Source: an uncultured Chloroflexia bacterium (GTDB lineage: Bacteria > Chloroflexota > UBA6077 > JACCZL01). Taken from it: a stretch of 64,000 nt of DNA. The DNA lies in NCBI GenBank assembly GCA_963765765.1, contig CAVXYC010000027.1, positions 32,001 through 96,000 on the forward strand. Direction: 5' to 3'. A program made the translations under genes and the position numbers. Below are positions 3,641 to 56,693 of this stretch, piece after piece. Positions within the stretch are counted from its first letter, which is position 1; each line of letters opens with the position of its first letter. The notes under the pieces were generated by a model that was given only the letters and a program-made list of their open reading frames with translations, was not told the DNA's origin and made no database searches.

Positions 3641-4051
3641 TCAACATTGAGTCTGAGAACTAAGTCATGCGGGACGATCATCCGTCCCGTGACATGCGAT
3701 TGAATCGATCGATACGTTCTTGATGAGCTACTTGATCGTCTGGTTGCCTACGCCGTCGTCAACCGGTCTATCAGCCCCATGCGTGACACGAGCGTTAACT
3801 CCGGCTCCTTGAATCCTCCAAACGCATTCCATCAAGTCTCTGTGATGTCGACTCTTCAACCGATTCGCCTCGATTGGTACGGCTGATTCTCCAGCGTCCT
3901 TGCCAGTGGGATCACCGCGCCCCAGCCAACTTACGCACTTCTGCGCGCGATCTAGTATTGGGCTTTAGCGCTCACGACGGCCAGCATTTTAGCGTCTCAG
4001 GCTCGAGGGTTCAGTGGTTCGCCCGAACTGGCCCCATATGCACGCTGAGCG

Positions 4052-5155
4052 CTAGGCGACAGCGGCCACCGGCGCCAGGCGATAAAACCGCTCGGCATTC
4101 CCGCCCAGGATCTTCCCTTTCGCTTCCTCGCCCATCTCCTCGTTCTCCAGCAGCTCCTCGATCTCGTGCCGACACATCGCCGCCGTCACTTCGTGCGGGA
4201 AGTCCGTGCTGAACAGGAACGCGTCCGCTCCCACCACCCGACTCGCTTCCGCAATCGCCGGCTCTTCCCCTTCGCACCCCACGTACAGCCGCCCTTCGGC
4301 GATCTGCCGCTGCATGTACGCGCTCACTCGCTCGCCCTCGCGCAGCTGGAAGTGCTCGTTGCGCGGGTCGTGCGCCAGGTGCGTCTCCCAGCTCCGATCG
4401 AACCGCTCCAGGCATACCAGGAACCACGCGACGCCCCCTTCCAGGTACGCGTAGCGGGCATTCGGAAAGTGGTCGAAGATGCCGTTGAACAGCATCGCTC
4501 CCAGACCGACCATCTGGCCGAACGGATGCCCCAGCCCGTGGACCGGCCCGTACACGTTGAAGTGGTCCATCCCGAAGCCGCTATGCGCGCCACCGTGCAC
4601 CGCCAGCGCGCAGCCCAGTCGATCGGCCACCTCGTACACCGGCCAGTATTCTTTGGCCCCCAGGTGGTTGGGCAGCCCGGTGCTCGGTAACATGGCTCCC
4701 CGCATCCCCAGCTCGGTCACCGCCCGCTCCAGCTCCTCCGCCGCCGCGCGCGGCTCCTGCATCGGAATCAGCGCCATGCCATTGAAGCGCTTATCGGCTC
4801 CCACGTAGCCATCGTAGAGCCAGTTGTTGTAGGCCCTACATAGGGAAGCGGCCCAATCGTAGTCCACCATCTTGCCGTGTGCGAGAGCTAGTGTTGGATA
4901 TAGGACGGTACTCTCAATACCGACATCTTCAAGGAAGATTTGCCATTCGCGCGGGCCCACCGGCTTACCCGCGCCAAACGCCCCCGGCAGAAGCTCCACC
5001 TGCTGACTATGGAGATGATCGAGTGGCGGGAACATCCGTGACGCTGCGTCATTCCACCGCCAATTTGACTTGTACACATCCGGAATGTGTTTGGCGATAC
5101 CCGGCCCGTCTTCAAAGACGTGACCGTCTGCGTCGACGATGTGCGGGGAGCTCAT
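4052..5155 (-). CDS. Amidohydrolase_2 family protein (decarboxylase/hydratase-like), copy 1
   Basis: DADGH metal motif, YNNWL, AVHG, LEGG, FSTDFPH, GGNAERFY. Confidence 0.92.
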   Translation of the reverse strand: MSSPHIVDADGHVFEDGPGIAKHIPDVYKSNWRWNDAASRMFPPLDHLHSQQVELLPGAFGAGKPVGPREWQIFLEDVGIESTVLYPTLALAHGKMVDYDWAASLCRAYNNWLYDGYVGADKRFNGMALIPMQEPRAAAEELERAVTELGMRGAMLPSTGLPNHLGAKEYWPVYEVADRLGCALAVHGGAHSGFGMDHFNVYGPVHGLGHPFGQMVGLGAMLFNGIFDHFPNARYAYLEGGVAWFLVCLERFDRSWETHLAHDPRNEHFQLREGERVSAYMQRQIAEGRLYVGCEGEEPAIAEASRVVGADAFLFSTDFPHEVTAAMCRHEIEELLENEEMGEEAKGKILGGNAERFYRLAPVAAVA

Positions 5156-13971: not shown

Positions 13972-13999
13972 TGTTCCGATAACGCCCACTATCGGAAGG
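13972..13999 (+). repeat. dif/Xer-like recombination site candidate A
   Basis: TGTTCCGATAA-CGCCCA-CTATCGGAAGG, 11-6-11 inverted arms. Confidence 0.6.
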
Positions 14000-14160
14000 G
14001 GCACAAACAAGGGAGACGTGAGGAACTTCCCGACGTAGTCCAAGAGCGAGCAGCATCGCGAGGATGATCGGGATGCCGGAGAACTCAAAGAACTTAGGGT
14101 GCTGACGAGTTCCGATACGTTCCGGCAATCATGGGGGCGTCCGGCGCGTTCCGCGCCTAT

Positions 14161-15151
14161 CTACTGGATGACCTCGGTCGCCTGGGCCAGGACCGACTGC
14201 GGGATGGTCAGCCCAAGCCCCTGTGCGGTCTTGAGGTTGATCACGAAGTCGAACGTCGTGGGCTGCTCGACGGGCATATCGGCCGGGTTGGCGCCCTTGA
14301 GGATCCTGTCCACGTAGGCAGCGGCGCGTCGGTAGATCTCGGCGAAGTTCGGCCCGTAGGTCGCGAGCCCGCCCACATCGGTGAACTCGCGATGTTCGTA
14401 GAGCGCGGGCAGCCGATGCTGCGCCGCCAGTTCGACGACCCGAGTAGGGTAACTGAGGGCGGGGCTGCCCGATGGCACCAGCAGCGCGTCGGCGCCCCAG
14501 TCGACCGCCGCCGCGAAGGCGCCGGCGAAATCGTCGGCCGTCCGCGCCGGCAGCAGCCGCACCTGCTGCCCCAGGACCTGGGCCGCCGCCTCGAAGTTCG
14601 CCAGCCGCGGCCCTGTCGCTGGAGTGTCGGGGTTGGCCAGGATGGCGACGCGGGAGGCCGTGGGGACCACCCCCTTCAGCCGCTCCATCCGCTTCATGTC
14701 GGTGCTATCGCCGAGGGTGCTCAAACCGGTGACGTTCCCGCCCGGCCGCGCGAGACTGGCGACCAGGCCGCTCCCGACCGGGTCGGGGACCGCGACGGCA
14801 ACCATGGGGATGGTGCTGGTGGCCTGCTTGGCGGCAAGGCTCGATTGGCCGCCTATCGTCACGAGGACATCGGGCCGCAGGTCGACCAGCTCGCTCGCCA
14901 GCCCGGGAAGACGCTCGTTCTGGCCCTCGGAGAAGCGGTACTCGATGTGGATGTTCTGCCCTGGCTCGTAGCCGTGCTCGCGCAGCCCACGGAGGAAGTC
15001 CTCGCGGATGACGGCGGCCAGGAAGCCGATTCGCGGCATCCTGGCCGTCCCCGTGACTCGGCGCCGACACGACCCCGCAGCCGGCGAGCAGGCCGAGGCC
15101 GGTGAGGCCGAGGCCAGCGCGCAGGAAGTCGCGACGACTCCACGGGTCCAT
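14161..15151 (-). CDS. COG2984 ABC substrate-binding lipoprotein, frameshift near 15060
   Basis: Signal peptide MDPWSRRDFLRAG...LAGC in one frame; mature domain (MPRIGFL...SLARPGGNVTG...QATEVIQ) in another. Confidence 0.82.
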
Positions 15152-15158
15152 GGCAGCC

Positions 15159-15187
15159 AGTATAGACCTGGCCCGCTTAGCCGACAA
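15159..15187 (-). promoter_or_regulatory. Leaderless-type sigma70 promoter
   Basis: TTGTCG-17 bp-TATACT, 7 nt before ATG 15151; a near-identical copy lies at 16411-16439. Confidence 0.65.
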
Positions 15188-15291
15188 TCGAACCATTCAC
15201 CCACCGCGGTCGGCGATCGGCCAGACAACGGAGCCAATCCAGAGAAGGATCTCTCACGCCCCTCCCGGCGCACGCTCCGCGTTTTGAAAGA

Positions 15292-15320
15292 GGGTCCGAT
15301 AACCCCCCATTATCGGCCCG
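15292..15320 (+). repeat. dif/Xer-like recombination site candidate B
   Basis: GGGTCCGATAA-CCCCCCA-TTATCGGCCCG (7-nt spacer, possibly a homopolymer indel). Confidence 0.6.
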
Positions 15321-15376
15321 TCCCTGCCTAGGGTCTCAGCGCAAAGAGGGGAGATTGATCCGAGCGAGCTCACTCG

Positions 15377-16403
15377 CTACTGGATCAGCTCGGTGGCCCG
15401 GAGCAGGACCGACTGGGGGACGGTGATCCCGAGCTCTCGGGCCATCCTGGAGATTCACCACGACCGGAAGCGTGGTCGGCAGCTCGATCGGCAGGTCGCC
15501 CGGTCTAGCGCCTTTGAGGATCCGGTCGACGTAATAGGCCGCCCGCCGGGCGAGCCCGGGCGAGTCAATGCCGTGTGCCAGCAGGCCGCCGTTGGCGGCG
15601 AAGAGCCGATTCTCCGCCACAGCCGGCAGCCCGGACTTCAACACCGCGCCGCCGATGCGGGGATCGGTCCCCCCACCGATGACGCCGCCCGGACAGCACG
15701 ACAGAGACCGCTCCGCCCCCCCGCCCTGGCCGTCGACGAGCACCGCCGAGAAGCTGGTCGAGGTGGGGCATCTCATACCAGCGCGAGCTGGAAGCCCCAG
15801 AGGATTGGGCGGCGCGCTCCACCTCTCGAGTTGCCCCTGCTGGGCGGTCGGGTTCCCGGCCCGATCCTCGCACTGCCGCCAGGCGGGAGATGCGTGGGCA
15901 CGGTCTCATGGAGCAGCTCGACCCACTTGCCGAGCGTTTCACCGGCGTTCGTCGCCACGCCGGTGATGTTGCCCTCGGGGCGGGCCATGTTTTTCACCGA
16001 GCCCGTTTCCTACGACGTTCGTACCGGCGGTCACGATCGGAATGGTCGAGGTCGCCCGGCTGGCGGCGACGGACCGCGGGGCTGCCCGCTGACGACGATG
16101 ACCTCGACCGGCAGAGCCGACCAGCTCGGCCGCCAGGGCCGGAAGGCGCTCGAAGTCCAGTTCGGCGTCGCGGCGCTCGATCAGGACGTGCTGGCCCTCG
16201 ACGTAGCCGAGGTCCGCGGAGCCCCTCGTGGAACGCATCGAAGTAGACCTCTGGGGGTTAGCGCCGGAGGTCCAGGTAACCGATGCGGCGCGGGCGCCGG
16301 CGCCCGGCCCTGCGATGGGAGCACCCCGCAGCCGGCGCAGCAGGCCGAGGCTGGTCAGGCCCAGGCTGGCACGCAGGAAGTCTCGACGATTCCACGGGTC
16401 CAT
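15377..16403 (-). pseudogene. COG2984 ABC substrate-binding protein, multiple frameshifts
   Basis: Fragments in several frames: MDPWNRRDFLRAS, LGYVEGQHV, NMARPEGNITG, YYVDRILKGARPGDLPIE. Confidence 0.8.
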
Positions 16404-16700
16404 GACAGCCAGTATAGACCTGGCGGCCTTAGCCCACAATCGAACCATTCACCATATCCCCAGCCGCCGATGCATGCCCCTCGAGCAGCGGGCTGAGGAC
16501 CTCTACCGGTGCGACCCCACCGTATTTGCAGGGCGCTTCCGGGTCGACCGGACCGCCGCGTCGTTCGACGCCTTCGTGTACCTGGCCGTGATCGTCATCT
16601 GCATCCGGAGAGCCATGCGTGCCCAAGCATCGGGCATCGAGGATGATTGTTTACCGCCAAGGCCTAGCGCGCACGGTCAGGCCCCGGATAGTTTGAAACA

Positions 16701-16728
16701 GGGTCCGATAACCCCCATTGTCAGAACC
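16701..16728 (+). repeat. dif/Xer-like recombination site candidate C
   Basis: GGGTCCGATAA-CCCCCA-TTGTCAGAACC; preceded by tttgaaa, as site B is. Confidence 0.6.
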
Positions 16729-16924
16729 AGAGGGCCGCGAGCCTGACTACAGAGAGTCACAGTGTTTTGGTTCCAGATAGCCGCCGCGCCTTACACCCGC
16801 CAAAGGAAGGAATCCTGGAGACGGCACGTATATTGGCGAAGTGCACGCGCTGTGGTCGGTCAAACGCGCGCGAGCCCGGGAACCTCTAGCGCCGTCAGCT
16901 TCACGGGCGTACACTAGCGCCATC

Positions 16925-17949
16925 ATGACGCCACTCGGACCATCGAGCACCCGTCGCCGCTTCCTGAGGGGTGGCCTGTCCATGGCCGGCCTCGGTCTGC
17001 TGGCCGGCTGCGGGCTGCTCCCTCCCCAGGCCCCAACGTCCGAGCGGGTGCGCCTGATCGGGGTCCTCGGCGACGCGCCTGGCGGGCGTTGGGACGCGTT
17101 CTTGGATGGACTGCGGGAGCTGGGCTGGGTCGAGGGCCGGAACCTCGCCGTGGAGTCCCGCTGGGCCGAGGGAGACTCCCAACGGTACCGGGCGCTCGCG
17201 ACCGAGCTCGTCGAGCGGAAGGTCGAGCTGATTGTAGTGGGGACGTCGGAGGCCAGCCTCGCCGCCAAGCAGGCGACCGCCACCGTCCCGCTCGTGGCGA
17301 TCCTGGTCAGCGGGGAGGCAATCGAGATCGGGCTCGTCGACAACATCGCGCGGCCCGGCGGGAACATCACTGGGACGGCCGGCATAAGCGGGCCGCAACT
17401 GGTAGGCAAGCAGCTTCAACTCTTGAAGGAAGCGGTCCCGCACGCCTCCCGTGTAGCCGTGCTCCGCCCAGGCAGCGCAGAGGACCTTCGGCTTCGGATG
17501 CGCGCGCGTGCGGGCGCTCCAGGAGGCCGCGCCCGGCCTCGGGGTACACCTTCACGTGGTCGCCATGCCGAACATCAGCGGCCTCGACGACGCGTTCGCG
17601 GCCATGTCCACAGCCGGCGCTGATGCCGTCAAGATTCTCCGCAACCCAGTTCGACTCTGCGTGGGGACGCATCGCCGAGTTAGCGCTCCAGTATCGGCTG
17701 CCGTCGATCGCGGAATATCCGGAGTTCGCTCGGGCGGGAGGCTTGCTGTCCTATGGCTCGAGTCGAGCCGAGGTCTACCGGAGTGCAGCACCGTACGTGG
17801 ACAAAATCCTGCGAGGCGCCCGCCCTGGCGACCTGCCGATGGAGCGGCCCACGGACTTCGACTTCGTGATCAATCTCGGAACAGCGCAGGCCCTGGGGCT
17901 GACCATCCCGCAGTCCATCCTGCCGCAGGCCACCGAAGTCATCCAGTAG
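16925..17949 (+). pseudogene. COG2984 ABC substrate-binding protein, frameshifted
   Basis: TRRRFL/LAGC signal, NIARPGGNITG; C-terminus YVDKILRGARPGDLPME...QATEVIQ in another frame; shifts near 17500 and 17650. Confidence 0.8.
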
Positions 17950-17989
17950 CAGACCGGCGAGCACCCCGGCCGATGGTTCCTTCGAAGCA

Positions 17990-18016
17990 AGTTCCGGTAA
18001 CCGCATCATCCGCCCT
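17990..18016 (+). repeat. Degenerate dif/Xer-like site candidate D
   Basis: AGTTCCGGTAA-CCGCA-TCATCCGCCCT, lying between two binding-protein paralogs. Confidence 0.4.
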
Positions 18017-18164
18017 AGTACACGGATGACGGGTGAGGTCGCTCGGAGCGAAGTCCTACGTAGCGCCCGATCGGCCTGCGCGCTATGCTGGGTATTCGTC
18101 GCGGGCTGTGCAGCCGGTGAGCCCGCCCAAGCTCTGAACGGGAGGACCTGTGCTGCAGGCCAAC

Positions 18165-19180
18165 ATGATGCGCCAGCGGTTTGCACCGACTCGTCGCGCC
18201 TTCCTGCGGGGCGGCCTGGCTGTGGCGGGCCTGGGCCTGCTCTCGGGGTGCGCGGCGGCATCGCCGATCGGCCCGCAGCGTCAGGCGCGGCTACCCCGTA
18301 TCGGCTACCTGTGGAGCGGCGAACAGGAATGGGCCGACGGCTTTCGGGAGGGCCTGGCGGACCTGGGCTACGTTGAGGGCAGGACTATCATCGTCGAGTG
18401 GCGACCCGCCGATGGGCAGGTCGAACGCTCCCCGGGCTGGCCGCCGAGCTGGTGGGCCTGCCCGTCGACGTGCTCGTGGCCTCCGGGGCCAGCCCATCCG
18501 GGCCGCGATGCGCGCCACCAGCACCATCCCGATCGTGATGGCATGAGACGAACGACCCGGTGGACGGAGGGCTTTGTGGCCAGCCTGGCACGGCCGGGAG
18601 GCAACGTCACCGGGCAGACCAGCATCTCCCGCGAGCTGATCTGGGAAGCGGTTGGAAGTTCTGCGAACGGCACTCCCGTCCGTGTCGCGGGTAGGCGTGA
18701 TCTGGAACCCTGATCTCGCCGACCAGGCCGGCGAGGTGCTGGAGGTGGAGGCCGCGGCCGGCCCCCTGGGGCTGGAGCTGTGCCGCTGGAGGTGCGTGAT
18801 TCCGCCGACCTCGAGGGCGCGTTCGAGCGAGCGGTGCATGAGCGGGTGGATGCGCTGTCCCTGGTGGACAATCTCGTGCTGGCGAGCAATGTGGCGCGGG
18901 TCGGCGGGCTGGCGCTCACGCACCGGTTGCCGATGAGCTCGGCCGCTCCGCGATATGGTGGCGGCCGGCGGACTGATCGCCTACGGCGCAAATCGCCCCG
19001 CCCTGTAGCGCCGCGCGGCCAGCTACGTGGACAGGATTCTGAAGGGCGCCAATCCCGCGGAGATGCCAGTGGAGCGGCCGGACGAAATTTGACCTGGTGA
19101 TCAACCTCGGAACGCGCAGGCGCTGGGCTCTGACGATTCCGCCGTCGGTCCTGGCCCAGGCAACCGAGATCATCCAGTAG
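18165..19180 (+). pseudogene. COG2984 ABC substrate-binding protein, multiple frameshifts; close paralog of 10487-11491
   Basis: PRIGYLWSGEQEWADGFREGLADLGYVEG, EGAFERAVHERVDAL; ends QATEIIQ followed by stop. Confidence 0.8.
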
Positions 19181-19245
19181 GTACTTGGCCCCATCAGCGC
19201 CCAAGCGCCCAGTACGGGGTGGGAGCGAGCTATCCGGACATCACT

Positions 19246-19272
19246 CGTTCCGATAATCCCCATTGCGGAACG
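19246..19272 (+). repeat. dif/Xer-like recombination site candidate E
   Basis: CGTTCCGATAA-TCCCCA-TTGCGGAACG (right arm one base short). Confidence 0.55.
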
Positions 19273-20052: not shown

Positions 20053-20176
20053 CACTCTGATGCGTAGGGCAGTAACCGGTGGTCGAGCCACATCGCGATT
20101 CAGCATCAGAAACAAGAAGCCCGGAGCTCGCTCGCTCCGGGCTTTCGTCCGTAGGGACGCTGAAAGTCCTGAGACG

Positions 20177-21265
20177 TCAGGCAGCAGCGCCCACCGGGGT
20201 CAGTTGGTAGAACCGCTCCGCGTTCCCCGCCAGGATCTTCCCTTTCGCTTCCTCGCCCATCTCCTCGTTCTCCAGCAGCTCCTCGATCTCGTGCCGACAC
20301 ATCTGCGCCGTCACTTCGTGCGGGAAGTCCGTGCTGAACAGGAACGCTTCCGCTCCCACCACCCGCGTCGCTTCCGCGATCGCCGGCTCTTCCCCTTCGC
20401 ACCCCACGTACAGCCGCCCTTCGGCGATCTGCCGCTTCATGTACGCGCTCACTCGCTCGCCCTCGCGCAGACGGAAGTGCTCATTGCGCGGGTCGTGCGC
20501 CAGGTGCGTCTCCCAGCTCCGATCGAACCGCTCCAGGCACACCAGGAACCACGCGACGCCACCTTCCAGGTACGCGTAGCGGGCATTCGGAAAGTGGTCG
20601 AAGATCCCGTTGAACAGCATCGCTCCCAGTCCCACCATCTGGCCGAACGGGTGCCCCAGCCCGTGGACCGGCCCGTACACGTTGAAGTGGTCCATCCCGA
20701 AGCCGCTGTGCGCGCCGCCGTGCACCGCCAGCGCGCAGCCCAGCCGATCGGCCACCTCGTACACCGGCCAGTACTCCTTGGCCCCCAGGTGGTTGGGCAG
20801 CCCGGTGCTCGGTAACATGGCTCCCCGCATGCCCAGCTCGGTCACCGCCCGCTCCAGCTCCTCCGCCGCCGCTCGCGGCTCCTGCATCGGAATCAGCGCC
20901 ATGCCGCCAAATCGAGGATCCACCTTCAGATAGGCATCATGGAGCCAGTCGTTGTATGCGCGGCAGGCCACAGCCGCCCACTCATAATCCACCATCTTGC
21001 CGTGCGCCAGGCCGCGCGTCGGATAGAGCACGGTGCTCTCGATGTTGATCTCGGTCAGGAACTCGAGCCACTCGGCAGCGCGGATGAACTTGCCGTTGCC
21101 CGAGGCGCCCGGCAGCATGACGAGCTGCTGGCTATGGAGGTGGTCGAGCGGCGGAAAGTGCCGGTCGGCGTTGTAGTTCCAACGATCCTTCCAGATGTCC
21201 GGAACGAACTTGGAGATCGCCTGCATGTCCTCCATGATGTGGCCATCTGCATCGATGATGCGCAT
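20177..21265 (-). CDS. Amidohydrolase_2 family protein, copy 2
   Basis: IDADGH, FSTDFPH; GGAGG RBS. Confidence 0.92.
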   Translation of the reverse strand: MRIIDADGHIMEDMQAISKFVPDIWKDRWNYNADRHFPPLDHLHSQQLVMLPGASGNGKFIRAAEWLEFLTEINIESTVLYPTRGLAHGKMVDYEWAAVACRAYNDWLHDAYLKVDPRFGGMALIPMQEPRAAAEELERAVTELGMRGAMLPSTGLPNHLGAKEYWPVYEVADRLGCALAVHGGAHSGFGMDHFNVYGPVHGLGHPFGQMVGLGAMLFNGIFDHFPNARYAYLEGGVAWFLVCLERFDRSWETHLAHDPRNEHFRLREGERVSAYMKRQIAEGRLYVGCEGEEPAIAEATRVVGAEAFLFSTDFPHEVTAQMCRHEIEELLENEEMGEEAKGKILAGNAERFYQLTPVGAAA

Positions 21266-52339: not shown

Positions 52340-52367
52340 AGTTCCGATAACCCCCATTATCGGAAAC
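52340..52367 (+). repeat. dif/Xer-like recombination site candidate F (closest to consensus)
   Basis: AGTTCCGATAA-CCCCCA-TTATCGGAAAC. Confidence 0.65.
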
Positions 52368-52748
52368 AAGCAAGCGCGCAGCAGCGGCACGGACCCGCAA
52401 TCGTGGCTATGGGCGAAACCCTATTAATGGCTCGACCGGGCTACATCGAACGCTCGCTCTACGCGCTGGCCATCAGGGAATGCTTCAACTATTGTGAAGT
52501 CTCCCCTGAGCGCCTCGAGACAGTATTTTCCCGCGTCGATCTCTTTCCGTGAGCGCACGCCGAAGCGACGTAGGAGCGGCAGGGCCGGCACCAGCCCTGG
52601 ACTGCGTGCTAACAGTAAAGGACGAGGACTCAGGGAACAATCACCTAGTGCCGCTAGCCCGCGACGAGGGTCAGCATCGAGTGCGTCGCGCCATGGCGGC
52701 CAGCTAACTCACGGATATCGAATCTTTAAGAGACAGGCATCGAAGGCT

Positions 52749-52778
52749 TGTTCCGATAACCCCCCTGTTATGCGAACC
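52749..52778 (+). repeat. dif/Xer-like recombination site candidate G
   Basis: TGTTCCGATAA-CCCCCCTG-TTATGCGAACC; the right arm reads GGTTCGCATAA on the minus strand, one mismatch from the E. coli XerC arm GGTGCGCATAA. Confidence 0.55.
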
Positions 52779-52942: not shown

Positions 52943-53974
52943 TCATGGCGATCGGTGCCGAAGGTCGGGTGCGCTCGCCGGATTTCGGCCCTTGAAGACC
53001 ACGAACAAGAGCCAGAGCGATGGCAGCAACAGCCCCATGCCCGGCACAAGCGTCCAGAGCACGAAGCGGAGCGTGGGCGCCGGTGCCGCCGAGTCGATCA
53101 CGGTCACATCGGGATAGATAATGTATGGCCATTGGGCCAGCGCCCAGCCCACCACCAACAGGATCACCTGGCCGACCGCCAGTGCTCGTGCCGTCGCGAA
53201 CCGATGCCTCCACATGGCCAAGGCGGACAGCGGCGCCAGCAGGATGCCACCGGCCACCACGGGTGCCGCCCGCAGGCTGGTCAGCCCTGTCCAGAGCCGT
53301 GGAGCTTCGACATAGGTTAGCAGCAGCGTCCCTATTGAGATGAGGCCTGCCGCCAGCCATGCGCCGAGCGCTCGGCGGCGGAAGTCCCCGCGCAGCTCGC
53401 CCTCGGTCTCCAGGGTCAGATAGACGGCGGCCAGATAGGCGCAGAGCGCGAGGGCCAGGGCACCGATCGCCAGTGCGAGCGGGTCGAGCCAGGCCCATGC
53501 CGCTTCCGGCGCCACCCGCCCGCTCTCGACTCGGATCCGCCCGTTCGAGACGGCGCCCAGGCAGACCCCGAGGAGGAACGGCGTGATAACGCTCGCGCCG
53601 CCGAAGACGTGCCCCCAGCTCAGGCGCGCGCCGATCGCCGCGTGTCCGTGCGCGCGGAACACGAACGCCGCCCCTCGCAGCACGACCCCCAGCAGGACCA
53701 GGTGGAAGGGGGCGAAGAATGCCACGCTCAGCGCCGCGAAGGCGGCCGGGAAGCAGGTGAAGAGCAGCACGATCAGGAAGATCAACCAGACGTGGTTGGC
53801 CTCCCAGACCGGCCCCATCGCGGTCGCGATGGCCGCGCGCTGCTTCCGGGCGCGTGGCCCACGGGCAAACAGGTCCCAGACTCCCCCGCCGAAGTCGGCG
53901 CCGGCCAGGACCGCATAGGCGACGAGCGTCCCCAGCGCGACGACGCCGACGACTTCGGGGAGGTACTCAGGCAT
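52943..53974 (-). CDS. cydB: Cytochrome bd quinol oxidase subunit II
   Basis: GADFGGG, GPVWEANHVWLI, LRGAAFVFR. Confidence 0.93.
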   Translation of the reverse strand: MPEYLPEVVGVVALGTLVAYAVLAGADFGGGVWDLFARGPRARKQRAAIATAMGPVWEANHVWLIFLIVLLFTCFPAAFAALSVAFFAPFHLVLLGVVLRGAAFVFRAHGHAAIGARLSWGHVFGGASVITPFLLGVCLGAVSNGRIRVESGRVAPEAAWAWLDPLALAIGALALALCAYLAAVYLTLETEGELRGDFRRRALGAWLAAGLISIGTLLLTYVEAPRLWTGLTSLRAAPVVAGGILLAPLSALAMWRHRFATARALAVGQVILLVVGWALAQWPYIIYPDVTVIDSAAPAPTLRFVLWTLVPGMGLLLPSLWLLFVVFKGRNPASAPDLRHRSP

Positions 53975-55331
53975 GGACGGGTGGAGCCTCTGGATCGGCC
54001 GCTGCGTGCTCCATCGGCTCGTCGCCACGCGCCAGGCGACGGAGCAGGATGATGAGGGTGACCGCCAGGCCGGCGTAGAGCAGGCTAAACCCGGCCAGGG
54101 ATATCCCGACCCCGCCGGCGGGCGTGACAGCGTCGGACGTGCGCATGACCCCGTAGATCACCCAGGGTTGGCGACCAACTTCGGTGACGATCCAGCCGGC
54201 CTCCAATGCCAGGAATCCGAGCGGTGCAGAGAGCACCAGCACCCAGAGGAGCCTCCGGCGGGCGGCCCAGTCGAGCCCGCCGCGTCGGCCGCGCCACCAC
54301 GCCCACCAGTACCAGAGCGCCACCCCCATCATCTCGAAGCCAGACCCGACCATTACCTGGAACGCCGGATGCACGATGCGCGACTCCGGCCACTGGTCGC
54401 GTGGGAATGCCTCCAGTCCGAGCACCTCGGCGTTCGGATCGTGGGCGGCCAGGACGCTGAGCAGGTACGGGATCTCGATGGCCCAGGACGTCTCCCGGGT
54501 ATTCGGGTCCGGCCAGCCGAAGATCCGCAACGGCGCGCCGCGCTCGGTCGTGAACTGGCCTTCCAAGGCTGCCAGCTTGGCTGGCTGATGCTCGTGTGCC
54601 CGCTGGGCCAGGAAGTCGCCAACGATCGGCTGGAGCACCGCCGAGATGCCGCCTAAGAGCATGGCGATAACGACGGCGAGGCCGTTGTAGCCGGCACAGT
54701 TCGAGCGTCGGTTCTTGAGCAGCGCCCAGGCGTAGATACCGGCGGCCGCAAACCCGACCGCCTGATACGTTGAGAGCGTCGAGTGCGCGGCCATCAGGGG
54801 CCAGGCCGGGTTGAAGAGCGCAGCCATCGGGTCGATGTTGATCGGCATGCCGTCTGGCCCCAGGTCGAAACCGACCGGCTGCTGCATCCATGAGTTCGCC
54901 GAGAGCACCAGGATGCCGGAGGCTGCTCCGCTGAGCGCAACGGGCCAACCACATAGCCAGTGAGCGAACGGTCTCAGGCGATCCCAGCCGTACAGGTACA
55001 GCCCGAGGAAGATCGCCTCGATGAAGAACGCGTACCCCTCCAGCGCGAAGGCCGGCCCGATGAGCGGCCCGGCGAACTCCATGAAGCGCGGCCAAAGCAG
55101 GCCGAGTTCGAACGAGAGCGCCGTGCCCGAGACGGCGCCGATGGCGAACAGAACGGCGGTGACCTTTGCCCAGGTCTTGGCGAGACGCAGGGCATCCCGA
55201 TCTCCCACCCGCAGCCAGCGGCCCTCGGCGATCAGCATCATCAGCGGCATCGCCATCCCGACCGCCGCGAAGACCATGTGGAACGCGAGCGAGACCTCCA
55301 TCTGGATCCGGGCGGCGGTGAGCTCGCTCAC
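53967..55331 (-). CDS. cydA: Cytochrome bd quinol oxidase subunit I (short Q-loop)
   Basis: LAFH, GAVSGT..SFE, QPAKLAALEG, EAGWIVTEVGRQPW; GTG start at 55331. Confidence 0.94.
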   Translation of the reverse strand: MSELTAARIQMEVSLAFHMVFAAVGMAMPLMMLIAEGRWLRVGDRDALRLAKTWAKVTAVLFAIGAVSGTALSFELGLLWPRFMEFAGPLIGPAFALEGYAFFIEAIFLGLYLYGWDRLRPFAHWLCGWPVALSGAASGILVLSANSWMQQPVGFDLGPDGMPINIDPMAALFNPAWPLMAAHSTLSTYQAVGFAAAGIYAWALLKNRRSNCAGYNGLAVVIAMLLGGISAVLQPIVGDFLAQRAHEHQPAKLAALEGQFTTERGAPLRIFGWPDPNTRETSWAIEIPYLLSVLAAHDPNAEVLGLEAFPRDQWPESRIVHPAFQVMVGSGFEMMGVALWYWWAWWRGRRGGLDWAARRRLLWVLVLSAPLGFLALEAGWIVTEVGRQPWVIYGVMRTSDAVTPAGGVGISLAGFSLLYAGLAVTLIILLRRLARGDEPMEHAAADPEAPPVHA

Positions 55332-55589
55332 GGCGGCGATCCTCCGAAGGGGGCAAGAGAGGCGGGGACCGCGAGCCGCCCGCGCACTCGATGCCACTGA
55401 TTGCCGTGGATATGGTCCCACAACGCTACGCCTGGGCGGGGCTGGAGAATCCCCCCAAGGGGGCGGGAATTCCCCTCTCCCGTTGTGAACGCGACGCCTG
55501 TGGGCGTCACCCATTGCTCACCGGGGCTCACTGCACTGCCTGAGCCTCCGCTCCGGAGATTAGGAGTTGGTTGGCAACCATCATGCCTG

Positions 55590-55760
55590 TGGCCACGTTC
55601 GACCCGTCGAGTGCCAATCTCGTGCCCATCGCCACCTGAACCGGCACGCCCCATGAGGTAGACAAGGATCGGCACCGTCAGGATCGAGCCGCAGGCACCA
55701 AGCGTCCCCGGCAACAGGCCGATCACGACCCCAAGCCTCAGAGCGAGCACGGCGTGACCC
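55590..55760 (-). pseudogene. TauE/SafE (sulfite exporter) N-terminal remnant
   Basis: LGVVIGLL.GTLGA.GSILTVPILVYLMG. Confidence 0.55.
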
Positions 55761-55789
55761 AACTCAGGCACGATCCGCTGATTCCAGTT

Positions 55790-56119
55790 CGGGAGCAAGC
55801 TGAGGGGCCAAGGTCGGGCGCAGCAGGTCGCAGGCGTCTGCGATGGCTGGGGTAGGCCAAGCCGTAGAAGTTTCTGTTCGCTTCGCGGCGGGCGGTCACC
55901 ATACCCACCTCGCGCATAACGGTCGGGTGCTGCGAGACATTCGGTTGGCGGACGCAAGCGCCGCGACCAACGATTAACGGTGCCCTCTCCGTCTCTGAGC
56001 AGGGGGATGATCGCCAGCCGCTTCGGGTCCGCCAGCGCTTGGCACAGCAGAGCCTGGCGCTCGAAGAGCGCCCTCGGCAGGTCGAGCCGCGGGGAAGATG
56101 CGCCGGATTGAATATTCAT
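55790..56119 (-). pseudogene. ArsR/SmtB-family regulator, frameshifted
   Basis: LFERQALLCQALADPKRLAII.LLRDGE.TV, then the frame is lost. Confidence 0.65.
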
Positions 56120-56176: not shown

Positions 56177-56204
56177 CGTTCCGATAACCCCCATTCTCGG
56201 AACG
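56177..56204 (+). repeat. dif/Xer-like recombination site candidate H
   Basis: CGTTCCGATAA-CCCCCA-TTCTCGGAACG. Confidence 0.65.
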
Positions 56205-56693
56205 ACCAGCTCCGGATGTGAACTCGGAGACTGATTCCTTGGTTCCAGATAATGGCCTATTGACGTGGTTATCGGAACCACATTTTCGTGCGTCGATCAT
56301 TTGCCAAAAGCGGCCGGCGAGAGATTCCCAGTGACGGGCGAGACTGGCTACGCTAATCCGGCTTAGCGCTCACGCTAGCCCAGGCCGTCTCAATACTGGC
56401 CGGGCGGGGTGGTCACTGAGACATTGTTTACTTGACGGGTTGTGAGACCAAGCGTCGAGCTCGGCCGCGGGGGTTCAAGGACAGTCGGAGCTCCGTCCAA
56501 CAAACGGCCGTTTTGTGAGACGTCGGGATCCGCGCCGCGCGGACGACGCCATCCGAGCGCGGTCTTGAGCTCGCGGTGTCCAGACTGGAGAGCGAGATCG
56601 CCCCGAGGGGCCGGCGCTGCACAACGGGATCGATCATCCCTCCCATCCTCCAATTCATTGTATGTAACGGGCGCTCCCCGCTCAGGACATGCG

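What the first reader, a model, noticed from the sequence alone, without database searches (positions are those of the whole stretch)
13972..19272. Array of single-gene cassettes delimited by dif/Xer-like palindromic sites (candidate new cassette system)
Seen: five related sites of about 28 bp at 13972, 15292, 16701, 17990 (degenerate) and 19246, consensus NGTTCCGATAA-CCCCCA-TTATCGGAACN. They are 1.26-1.41 kb apart with the asymmetric C-rich spacer always on the plus strand. Each interval holds exactly one COG2984 binding-protein paralog (two minus, two plus). Established: 11-6-11 geometry with inner ATAA/TTAT is the hallmark of dif/Xer tyrosine-recombinase sites, and pdif modules mobilise single genes on Acinetobacter plasmids. 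Unlike canonical dif, both arms here look XerC-like, with no TTATGTTAAAT XerD arm. Unlike pdif pairs, the sites are all direct repeats. Inference: a chromosomal, integron-like array in which one recombinase excises and stacks modules at symmetric sites with matching spacers.
Basis: partly seen in the sequence, partly recalled or inferred. Interest (0 to 1): 0.88.

Follow-up and report, generated by a model that had tools for sequence, protein, structure and literature searches.

The report
Dif-like repeat sites bounding gene modules
A soil bacterium carries about fifty copies of a 26-base palindrome that copies one arm of its own probable chromosome-resolution (dif) site and sits at the joints between reshuffled gene-sized DNA modules, which looks like a Xer-type cassette system so far described only in Acinetobacter.

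Summary
The five sites are there, co-oriented, 1256-1409 bp apart, with one PF04392 binding-protein gene per interval. All four genes are out of frame somewhere. The window holds three more sites, at 52341, 52750 and 56178.

About 48 copies exist genome-wide, and the family is close to specific to this genome. The sites are not terminators, show no sign of hairpin selection, sit at no fixed promoter position, and are not passengers of duplications.

In 1128 site pairs, 29 share only the left flank, 27 only the right and 3 both. So the site is a joint between independently assorting modules.

Two comparisons put gene-content breaks at or near sites. A single-copy 28-bp dif-like site lies upstream of a conserved Xer-family gene. 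One of its arms matches the repeat's arm at 9 of 10 bases.

Best reading (0.5): symmetrised dif-arm recombination sites bounding modules, a new variant of Acinetobacter dif modules. No recombination product was seen and the enzyme is inferred.

The parts
13972..13998 (+). Family site (core palindrome), spacer CGCCCA. It is the left breakpoint against metagenome contig L048.
14161..15273 (-). PF04392 binding-protein gene, subfamily C. The ORF of 370 aa is open, but the Tat/lipobox signal is in another frame.
   Evidence: module homology 14161-15306/15315 to three other loci
15292..15319 (+). Family site with a 7-nt spacer. The left arm goes with the left flank module and the right arm with the right flank module.
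15380..16453 (-). PF04392 paralog split over three frames (pseudogene or assembly indels).
16701..16727 (+). Family site with a diverged right arm; it cannot fold as a hairpin.
16769..16780 (+). Remnant of the left half of the second palindrome (GGTTCCAGATAG), 41 nt after the site.
16904..17949 (+). PF04392 paralog, subfamily A, split over two frames. It is 87-94% identical to eight dispersed copies, and the homology ends at the stop codon.
17990..18014 (+). Degenerate family site (left arm only).
18189..19179 (+). PF04392 paralog, subfamily B, split over frames. It is 82-86% identical to seven dispersed copies.
19246..19271 (+). Family site with a 5-nt spacer.
52341..52366 (+). Family site, one mismatch to the consensus. 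Left end of the segment that G001 lacks.
52750..52778 (+). Variant family site GTTCCGATAAC-CCCCCT-GTTATGCGAACC.
52943..55514 (-). cydB and cydA (cytochrome bd oxidase), the cargo between two co-oriented sites. Not found in G001 with this query.
56178..56203 (+). Family site, one mismatch to the consensus; first part of the composite.
56241..56280 (+). Second palindrome ('site 2'): GGTTCCAGATAA-N14-GGTTATCGGAACC, 37 nt after the site, with TTGACG in its spacer.

Best explanation
The 26-30 bp palindromes are a lineage-specific family of Xer-type (tyrosine-recombinase) core sites. Each has two inverted copies of one arm of the genome's own dif-like site around a conserved 6-nt spacer. Recombination in or next to the spacer between two family sites joins whatever lies left of one to whatever lies right of the other. 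Gene-sized modules (binding-protein genes, cydAB, a phosphofructokinase gene, a SnoaL-like gene) are thereby inserted, lost and reshuffled. Repeated integration of circles into an existing site leaves arrays of co-oriented sites like the one in the window.

Shown: the anatomy, the copy number, the restriction to this genome, the independent assortment of the flanks, the breakpoints, and the likeness to the dif-like site.

Inferred: that a recombinase does this, and which one. The candidates are the conserved Xer-family gene next to the dif-like site (G000:C10:276983-278050), its conserved partner on C29, or a third, frameshifted Xer-like gene 0.4 kb from a site on C30. About ten copies also carry a second palindrome 37 nt away that overlaps a promoter-like box. 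I read this as the regulatory or accessory part of the ancestral element; that is inference only.
For: 1. Geometry and conservation. In 30 copies with a 6-nt spacer, arm positions 1-10 and 17-26 and spacer positions 11-16 are all conserved (for example C15 in 30 of 30, A16 in 27 of 30).

2. Flank assortment. Among 1128 pairs of the 48 sites, 29 share only the left flank, 27 only the right and 3 both. One of the 3 is two overlapping neighbour sites. Controls give 2 of 2256 and 0 of 2256. Arm variants travel with the flank on their own side: left-only pairs share 9.14 left-arm and 7.14 right-arm positions, against 8.48 and 7.09 in unrelated pairs; right-only pairs share 8.53 right-arm positions. 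This places the exchange between the arms.

3. Whole modules. The subfamily C unit is homologous from site to site at C1:191289-192542 and C23:452364-453608, with unrelated DNA outside both ends. The other two copies end in a site on the upstream side.

4. A second array with unrelated cargo at C23:452-458 kb: LigB | site | binding protein | site | phosphofructokinase | two sites | ORF | two sites | SnoaL-like | site | ORF | two sites | binding protein. All sites are on one strand.

5. Breakpoints.
- Contig L048 (92% identical) follows G000 up to the last base of site 13972, then has 1 kb with a GNAT-like ORF (my reading of the translation) where G000 has 42.4 kb.
- G001 has the P-type ATPase gene 440 nt from the Rieske gene. 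G000 has site-cydBA-site-composite (4.7 kb) between them.
- In 4 of 4 regions compared with G001, the DNA holding the sites found no match there.

6. The dif link.
- A 28-bp 11-6-11 site lies 124 nt upstream of a tyrosine recombinase that has orthologs (E <= 1e-30) in 34 of 40 relatives; all but one of those have a hit of 52-86% identity.
- The site is single-copy and identical in G000 and G001.
- Related unique sites lie upstream of the orthologs in 5 further relatives, so 7 of 15 examined including G000.
- GC skew changes sign near it.
- Its arm GTTACGATAA differs from the family arm GTTCCGATAA at 1 of 10 positions.

7. Co-orientation inside clusters: 8 of 8 in the window and 13 of 14 on C23. 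This is what integration at a site produces.

8. In Acinetobacter dif modules, exchange takes place between sites with identical or near-identical 6-bp spacers (passages of PMC13141974).
Against: - No recombination product (circle, empty site, hybrid site) was observed.
- G001 has the identical dif-like site, the conserved Xer gene and an 87% ortholog of the third recombinase, yet 0 family sites at up to 3 mismatches. Xer plus dif is therefore not enough to explain the family.
- The locus in G001 that lacks the cydAB segment has no site either, so simple integration at a pre-existing site is not shown.
- The right breakpoint against L048 lies 215 nt beyond site 56178, at the outer edge of the composite.
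- Around site C1:154755, homology with G001 resumes 1.2 kb from the site.
- For subfamilies A and B, homology between copies ends at the gene ends and not at the sites.
- One pair (C20:551909 and C30:95083) is homologous straight through the site.
- Both arms are alike, and it is unknown whether any Xer-type enzyme would cut such a site.
- The dif-like site was found by scanning for ATAA-N6-TTAT (6 non-family hits). Given that scan, the arm match alone has a chance probability of roughly 0.05 by my own estimate.
- The cargo of the window's array is broken in all four genes.
Confidence: 0.5

Rival explanations
1. A REP/BIME-like family of mosaic intergenic palindromes. It spread by an unknown copy mechanism and has no role in moving genes. 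The module joints arise because the repeats are mixed with other small repeat modules.
For: - 46 of 48 sites are intergenic by a crude gene call: 13 between convergent genes (plus one called inside an ORF), 26 between tandem genes, 6 between divergent genes (plus one called inside an ORF) and one beside a contig end.
- The family is nearly restricted to one genome.
- Sites combine with several recurrent short flank modules.
- A separate MITE-like repeat sits beside several copies.
- Good copies can fold as DNA hairpins (-7 to -8.5 kcal/mol).
Against: - The three Y1-transposase (RAYT/IS200-type) hits lie more than 100 kb from any site.
- There are only about 50 copies.
- Substitutions break pairing (1 compensatory change among 30 copies), and 2 of the 5 array sites cannot fold.
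- Sites in a cluster are co-oriented rather than alternating.
- The arm matches the dif-like site.
- Whole genes, not just short repeat modules, change at the joints.
Confidence: 0.2
2. The palindromes are hot spots for ordinary recombination or replication errors (short-homology crossover, template switching at a palindrome). No dedicated site-specific enzyme is involved, and the likeness to dif is a coincidence.
For: - The flank assortment only shows that exchange happens inside roughly 26 bp. It does not show which enzyme is responsible.
- No intact dedicated recombinase lies in the window or on its contig.
- Several breakpoints are near a site rather than exactly at it.
Against: - 26 bp is very short for homologous exchange (general knowledge, not tested here).
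- The spacer is as conserved as the arms.
- Clusters are strictly co-oriented.
- The composite of two palindromes has a fixed geometry while the DNA between them varies.
- The arm matches the dif-like site.
Confidence: 0.12
3. The half-site is the operator of a DNA-binding regulator or a nucleoid-associated protein, and the sites mark a regulon.
For: - In about ten copies, two palindromes of one half-site lie at a fixed distance (left half at +63 to +68, right half at +88 to +91) while the sequence between them varies.
- The second palindrome carries a TTGAC(A/G/T) box in its spacer and is followed by a conserved ATGTTTTACT in three loci. This places a half-site between -35-like and -10-like boxes.
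Against: - 13 of 48 sites lie between convergent genes and there is no fixed distance to starts.
- There are 0 sites in the same-genus genome and 1-2 in 2 of 30 relatives.
- The asymmetric spacer is conserved, and the sites are co-oriented over tens of kb.
- Repression of a promoter by a recombinase at its own site would explain the composite equally well.
Confidence: 0.1
4. The sites are mere passengers inside tandem and segmental duplications of the binding-protein genes.
For: - 28 of 48 sites lie within 400 bp of a PF04392 paralog.
- The paralogs form subfamilies of 83-98% nucleotide identity spread over many contigs.
- Relatives have tandem arrays of the family.
Against: - 20 of 48 sites have no such gene nearby.
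- Only 3 of 1128 pairs share both flanks.
- Sites bound cydAB, a phosphofructokinase gene and a SnoaL-like gene.
- The arrays in relatives have overlapping stop and start codons and no site.
Confidence: 0.03

Closest known systems
dif modules / pdif sites of Acinetobacter plasmids, and the chromosomal 'dif module islands' (PMC13141974, passages seen; PMC12907356, abstract seen)
   Same: - 28-bp-type sites with 11-6-11 geometry and inner ATAA/TTAT that resemble the host dif.
- Gene-sized modules lie between the sites, in linear multi-module arrays.
- Partner sites share the 6-bp spacer.
- One XerC-side arm in Table 1 of PMC13141974 (ATTTCGGATAA) matches the half-site GGTTCCGATAA at 8 of 11 positions (my count).
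   Different: - Here both arms are the same arm type, so there is no second, XerD-type arm.
- Sites are direct repeats instead of alternating C/D orientation, so excision of a single module is geometrically allowed.
- The host is an uncultured soil bacterium (nearest atlas clusters mostly Chloroflexota, a lead only), and the sites are chromosomal.
- The cargo is transport and metabolic genes, much of it broken, not resistance genes.
- About ten copies carry a second palindrome.
- Recombination is shown experimentally in Acinetobacter and not here.
Xer systems whose recombinase gene is linked to its dif site, as for XerS/difSL (starts of abstracts of PMC2731167 and PMC5357621 in the listing)
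   Same: The single-copy, conserved 28-bp site lies directly upstream of a conserved Xer-family gene in G000, G001 and 5 further relatives.
   Different: That site is the probable dif, not the repeat family. Its two arms differ, and a second conserved Xer-family gene exists on C29, so a two-recombinase system is possible. Function in dimer resolution is not tested.
Integrons (attI plus arrays of attC cassettes)
   Same: Co-oriented recombination-type sites delimit mostly single-gene units. A subset of sites has extra binding-site-like repeats on one side, which recalls the accessory repeats of attI (recalled, not tested).
   Different: - No integron integrase: the best tyrosine recombinases score 54-80 bits against a cut-off of 265.
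- Sites are 26-30 bp perfect-type palindromes, not 57-141 bp attC (the attC size is recalled).
- Genes lie in both orientations.
- Sites are scattered over at least 12 contigs.
REP/BIME repeats with RAYT transposases
   Same: Short palindromes, intergenic, species-specific, in mosaics with other small repeats.
   Different: - No RAYT lies beside them.
- There are about 50 copies.
- The stem is not kept by compensatory change.
- Sites are co-oriented in clusters.

Membership tests
Xer/dif-type core site | Two inverted arms of about 11 bp around a 6-bp central region, inner ATAA / TTAT | tested here: met
   Consensus GTTCCGATAA-CCCCCA-TTATCGGAAC from 30 copies. The spacer is 5 or 7 nt in some copies.
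Xer/dif-type core site | Arms resemble those of the host's own dif | tested here: met
   One arm of the candidate dif (GGTTACGATAA, G000:C10:278147-278174) matches at 9 of 10; the other arm matches at 6 of 11. The candidate dif itself is inferred.
Xer/dif-type core site | Bound and cut by Xer recombinases | not testable with these tools
   Needs EMSA and recombination assays.
Chromosomal dif proper | Single copy, conserved, near the terminus | tested here: not met
   About 48 copies on at least 12 contigs. The single-copy conserved site is a different sequence.
Acinetobacter-type dif modules | Modules bounded on both sides by dif-like sites, the same module in different neighbourhoods | tested here: met
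   The subfamily C module is homologous from site to site at two loci with unrelated outer flanks. cydAB lies between two sites.
Acinetobacter-type dif modules | Sites have distinct XerC and XerD arms, and modules alternate in C/D orientation | tested here: not met
   Both arms are alike. Sites are direct repeats: 8 of 8 in the window, 13 of 14 on C23.
Acinetobacter-type dif modules | [quoted passage not shown] | tested here: inconclusive
   The spacer is conserved and the exchange maps between the arms, but no event was observed.
Integron | Integron integrase beside the array | tested here: not met
   21 PF00589 matches, none on the window's contig. The two Xer-like recombinases tested score 53.8 and 79.6 bits against a cut-off of 265.
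REP/RAYT | RAYT gene flanked by the repeats | tested here: not met
   The 3 PF01797 matches (C20:197.9 kb, C18:113.6 kb, C23:350.6 kb) lie far from all sites.
REP/RAYT | Hairpin kept by compensatory changes | tested here: not met
   1 compensatory pair; most changes break pairing, for example C.A in 7 of 30 at pair 5/22.
Transcription-factor operator | Fixed position relative to promoters, conserved in relatives | tested here: not met
   All intergenic arrangements occur, including 13 convergent. There are 0 sites in the same-genus genome. The subset with the second palindrome remains compatible with an operator role.
Intrinsic terminator | GC-rich stem followed by a T run | tested here: not met
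   None of the sites is called, and there is no T run.
Serine-recombinase res / invertase site | Resolvase or invertase gene in the genome | tested here: not met
   0 PF00239 matches in G000 (92% complete), while 12 of 14 control genomes match.
Known RNA family | Match to an Rfam model | tested here: not met
   0 matches at gathering score in the window.

The most novel reading that the evidence does not exclude
A self-contained chromosomal cassette system outside Acinetobacter. A Xer-family recombinase acts on symmetric sites made of two copies of one dif arm with a fixed spacer. This may be the accessory, now frameshifted gene on C30, whose promoter region carries the same half-sites. Single-gene circles would then integrate and excise at any family site. 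The composite (core site plus a second palindrome over a promoter) would be the platform and control region of the founding element.
Probability: 0.3. Interest if true: 0.85.

Novelty: new variant of a known kind. Interest (0 to 1): 0.66.

Why it matters
As far as my three literature searches show, Xer-dependent gene modules are known as a peculiarity of Acinetobacter plasmids and, recently, its chromosome. A comparable set of dif-like sites at module joints in an unrelated soil bacterium would suggest that hijacking the dimer-resolution machinery for gene shuffling is more general. This set has a simpler, symmetric site and direct repeats that permit excision.

It also gives a concrete, testable substrate: a 26-bp site, a candidate dif and three candidate recombinases. 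And it points to the probable dif/Xer arrangement of a poorly studied lineage.

Tried and rejected
- Rfam at gathering score on the window gave nothing.
- Terminator scan: no site was called.
- Serine recombinase idea (26 bp read as 12-2-12, composite read as a res-like site): dropped because G000 has no PF00239 match.
- RAYT idea: dropped.
- Link between site orientation and GC skew: 27 agree and 21 disagree, so there is no link.
- Short motifs of the canonical proteobacterial XerD-arm type: 0 matches in G000.
- Public collections:
  - 13 scattered single matches in 185,579 species genomes. The 8 I read (of 13) are coding or unrelated sequence.
  - 1 unrelated match in viral contigs.
  - 2 metagenome contigs, both used.
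- Sequencing runs: the best holder has 0.18 of the words. The contigs of four soil runs gave only short pieces, and the joints lie between conserved parts of paralogous genes, none at a site. This says nothing for or against excision.
- Synteny of the array itself with G001: the G001 contig ends before the array, and an apparent rearrangement is explained by a 92% paralog at window 4045-4375.
- LigB next to the C23 cluster is a paralog of the G001 match, so it gives no synteny information.
- G029 and G005 have no dif-like site directly upstream of the conserved recombinase gene.
- The taxon was not established (one search is only a lead).
- No supplementary files were asked for.
- Counts include G006, an unpublished genome.
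- The list of 48 sites is curated. It keeps arm score of at least 16 of 20 with at least 3 C in the spacer, plus 8 sites of score 15 that I added by hand (C27:49991, C27:51247, C23:203612, 204639, 455253, 456194, C17:124091, C1:191289). At least two more degenerate copies exist.

Full report
OBSERVATION. Site 13972 has one change in each arm and one in the spacer. Site 15292 has a 7-nt spacer. Site 16701 has a diverged right arm. Site 17990 keeps only the left arm. Site 19246 has a 5-nt spacer. All have the C-rich spacer on the + strand, and the spacings are 1320, 1409, 1289 and 1256 bp. The 26-mer at up to 3 mismatches occurs 4 times in the window against 0.01 expected. The left half-site at up to 1 mismatch occurs 9 times against 0.49 expected.

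Each interval holds one PF04392 paralog, two on each strand. Three are split over reading frames. In the fourth, the Tat/lipobox signal peptide lies in a different frame from the mature domain. All four therefore look broken, unless the assembly has indel errors in these repeats.

The window holds three more sites, at 52341, 52750 (a variant) and 56178, around cydBA. A second, wider palindrome of the same half-site lies at 56241-56280.

CENSUS. A scan of the whole genome (6.49 Mb, 33 contigs, 61% G+C) gives about 48 copies on at least 12 contigs. They are concentrated in a few clusters: C1 183-194 kb, C7 0-5 and 36-45 kb, C23 452-458 kb, and the window. Eight of the 48 were added by hand at a slightly lower score, and at least two further degenerate copies exist.

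The family is almost restricted to this genome:
- There are 21 matches at up to 3 mismatches in G000, 0 in the same-genus genome G001, and 1 and 2 in two of the 30 relatives. The reversed control gives 0 everywhere.
- The 11-nt half-site occurs 35 times in G000 against 0-4 in relatives.
- A 20-nt core pattern finds only 13 single, scattered matches in one genome each of 185,579 species. The 8 that I read are unrelated sequence.

WHAT THE SITES ARE NOT.
- They match no Rfam family.
- They are not terminators.
- By a crude gene call, 46 of 48 are intergenic, in every arrangement: 13 convergent, 26 tandem, 6 divergent and one beside a contig end. This does not fit an operator at fixed promoter positions.
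- Good copies can fold, but two of the five array sites cannot.
- Among 30 copies the substitutions mostly break pairing, with a single compensatory change. There is therefore no sign of selection on a hairpin.
- The three Y1-transposase matches are far from any site.
- The genome has no serine recombinase match.
- Site orientation does not follow GC skew.

THE SITE IS A JOINT. I compared the 60 nt on each side of all 48 sites with a gapped local alignment. Of 1128 pairs, 29 share only the left flank, 27 only the right and 3 both. One of the 3 is two overlapping neighbour sites, one is weak, and one is a real duplication through the site (C20:551909 and C30:95083). The controls pass in 2 of 2256 and 0 of 2256 pairs. 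Ten sites have a left relative and a right relative that are different sites, so they are chimeras.

Variants in an arm go with the flank on the same side and not with the other flank. This places the exchange between the arms. A site carried along inside duplicated segments would instead give many pairs that share both flanks.

MODULES.
- The subfamily C binding-protein unit (window 14161 to the site at 15292) recurs at three other loci with 84-89% identity. The homology runs from the stop codon, or from a site 55-59 nt beyond it, to the upstream site, and it stops within the site. At C1:191289-192542 and C23:452364-453608 it is bounded by sites at both ends, with unrelated DNA outside.
- On C23, a 5.3-kb stretch has nine sites on one strand. 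They separate a binding-protein gene, a phosphofructokinase gene, an ORF without a family, a SnoaL-like gene, another ORF and a second binding-protein gene.
- For subfamilies A and B (window 16904-17949 and 18189-19179; 82-94% identical to seven or eight dispersed copies each), the homology ends at the gene ends and not at the sites.
- Relatives have tandem arrays of this gene family with overlapping stop and start codons and no palindrome. The arrays as such therefore do not need the site.

COMPARISONS WITH OTHER GENOMES. Metagenome contig L048 is 92% identical to G000 in the glyoxalase-family and Rieske genes. It follows G000 from the glyoxalase gene up to the last base of a perfect site. 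It then has 1 kb with a GNAT-like ORF (my reading of its translation), and then rejoins G000 at window 56419. G000 has 42.4 kb in that place. The right breakpoint is the outer edge of the composite, 215 nt beyond site 56178. L048 has diverged half-sites at the corresponding place.

G001 has the P-type ATPase gene 440 nt from the Rieske gene. G000 has the 4.7 kb 'site - small ORF - variant site - cydBA - site - second palindrome' between them. This copy of cydAB gave no match in G001, and the 440 nt in G001 hold no site.

In all 4 regions compared with G001, the DNA that holds the sites has no match there. In one of them, homology resumes 1.2 kb from the site. Contigs of four soil runs gave no usable joints.

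THE DIF LINK. A scan for ATAA-N6-TTAT outside the family gives six places. One of them lies 124 nt upstream of a tyrosine recombinase gene (G000:C10:276983-278050). It reads GGTTACGATAA-TGCTAA-TTATATCTACC on the strand of that gene.

The gene scores as Xer-type below the equivalog cut-offs. It has orthologs (E <= 1e-30) in 34 of 40 relatives, and all but one of those have a hit of 52-86% identity. The 28-mer is single-copy and identical in G000 and G001, and it was not found in the other 39 genomes at up to 3 mismatches.

Related 11-6-11 sites lie upstream of the orthologs in G007, G015, G010, G016 and G020. In the last three the site is identical and unique. In all, 7 of 15 upstream regions examined have such a site. 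GC skew on C10 is +0.016 before the site and -0.013 in the 20 kb after it.

I take this to be the probable dif. Its left arm differs from the family arm at one of ten positions. The exact dif arm occurs once in the genome, and the other dif arm is not amplified.

THE COMPOSITE AND A THIRD RECOMBINASE. In about ten copies, the core site is followed after 36-41 nt by GGTTCCAGATAA-N13/14-GGTTATCGGAACC. The geometry is constant while the DNA between varies. Contig L049 and G029:C10 carry the same composite in foreign contexts. The spacer of the second palindrome often holds TTGAC(A/G/T). In three loci the palindrome is followed by ATGTTTTACT. I read this as a promoter with a half-site between its boxes; that is inference.

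On C30, a core site and such a second palindrome lie 0.4 kb and 0.15 kb upstream of a third Xer-like gene. That gene is frameshifted in G000. It has an 87% ortholog in G001, which does not share the frameshift, and a truncated 69% one in G029. G029 is one of the two relatives with family-like sites, which is a weak hint. Four of about 15 tyrosine-recombinase loci lie within 2.5 kb of a site. Most of those are fragments of phage-type integrases.

MECHANISM. The best reading is that the family consists of Xer-type core sites built from two copies of one dif arm. Exchange in the spacer between family sites moves and reshuffles the DNA between them. Integration of circles explains the co-oriented arrays. 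[quoted passage not shown] A spacer different from that of the dif-like site would keep the family from recombining with it.

What is shown is anatomy and comparative pattern. The action of a recombinase, its identity and the role of the second palindrome are inferred.

The main points against this reading are:
- G001 has the same dif-like site and recombinases but no family.
- The locus in G001 that lacks the segment has no site.
- Several breakpoints are near a site rather than at it.
- The array's genes are broken.

COMPARISON AND NOVELTY. The closest known system is the dif modules of Acinetobacter, including the chromosomal 'dif module islands' (abstract of PMC12907356; passages of PMC13141974). 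Here the sites are symmetric and directly repeated, the host is an unrelated soil bacterium and the cargo is different. I therefore file this as a new variant of a known kind, not as a member. It is not an integron, a REP/RAYT family or a res system (see the membership table). My three literature searches returned no description of such a family outside Acinetobacter and the phage-like elements that integrate at dif. This is not proof that none is in print.

CAVEATS.
- The genome is a metagenome-assembled one (92% complete, 6.85% contamination). Some dispersed near-identical copies could belong to co-binned strains.
- C-run lengths and frameshifts may be assembly errors.
- G001 is in 650 contigs and only 66-87% identical, so intergenic breakpoints cannot be placed to the base.
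- The list of sites is partly curated by hand.

Noticed in passing
G000:C10:278147-278174 (outside the window): Probable dif of this lineage: a single-copy 28-bp 11-6-11 site directly upstream of a conserved Xer-family gene. It is identical in G001. A different but unique and identical site lies at the same place in three genera of a sister family.
   Followed up: yes
G000:C30:93979-95108 (locus L015/L050): Third Xer-like recombinase gene with a +1 frameshift in its N-terminal domain. Upstream of it lie a family site and a second palindrome. It has an 87% ortholog in G001, which lacks this frameshift, and a truncated 69% ortholog in G029.
   Followed up: partly
G000:C1:3333-3534, and 6 more places: A 27-nt repeat occurs 8 times, here as an inverted pair about 200 bp apart. 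This looks like a small MITE, and it sits next to several composite sites.
   Followed up: partly
L043 (G009:C4:29500-37500), L044, L045 (G001): Relatives carry tandem runs of two to six PF04392 genes in which the stop codon overlaps the next start (ATCCAGTGA), an operon-like packing of paralogs.
   Followed up: partly
window 52400-52560: Between sites 52341 and 52750 there is only a possible 41-codon ORF. It would be a very small 'module'.
   Followed up: no
window 20169-20500 and 4045-4375: Two amidohydrolase (PF04909) paralogs share a stretch of 92% nucleotide identity, which can mislead synteny comparisons.
   Followed up: partly
window 55328-56119(-) and 53967-55514(-): A 263-aa ORF without any family overlaps the 5' end of cydA, whose Pfam match starts only at residue 68. 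The true start of cydA and the status of the upstream ORF are unclear.
   Followed up: no
L014 (G000:C20:546000-554000): A binding-protein module with sites on both sides sits between a phage-type integrase (next to aspartate kinase and a LysM gene) and a terminase small-subunit gene. It lies inside a prophage-like remnant.
   Followed up: partly
L049 2277-2410 and L003 (G029:C10:79771-79890): The full composite (core site, 37 nt, second palindrome, TTGAC box) occurs in DNA unrelated to G000. In G029 it lies next to small phage-like genes, which hints at a mobile founding element.
   Followed up: partly
G000, many contigs: About a dozen fragments of one family of phage-type integrases, most much shorter than a full gene. 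This is a genome rich in decayed mobile DNA.
   Followed up: no
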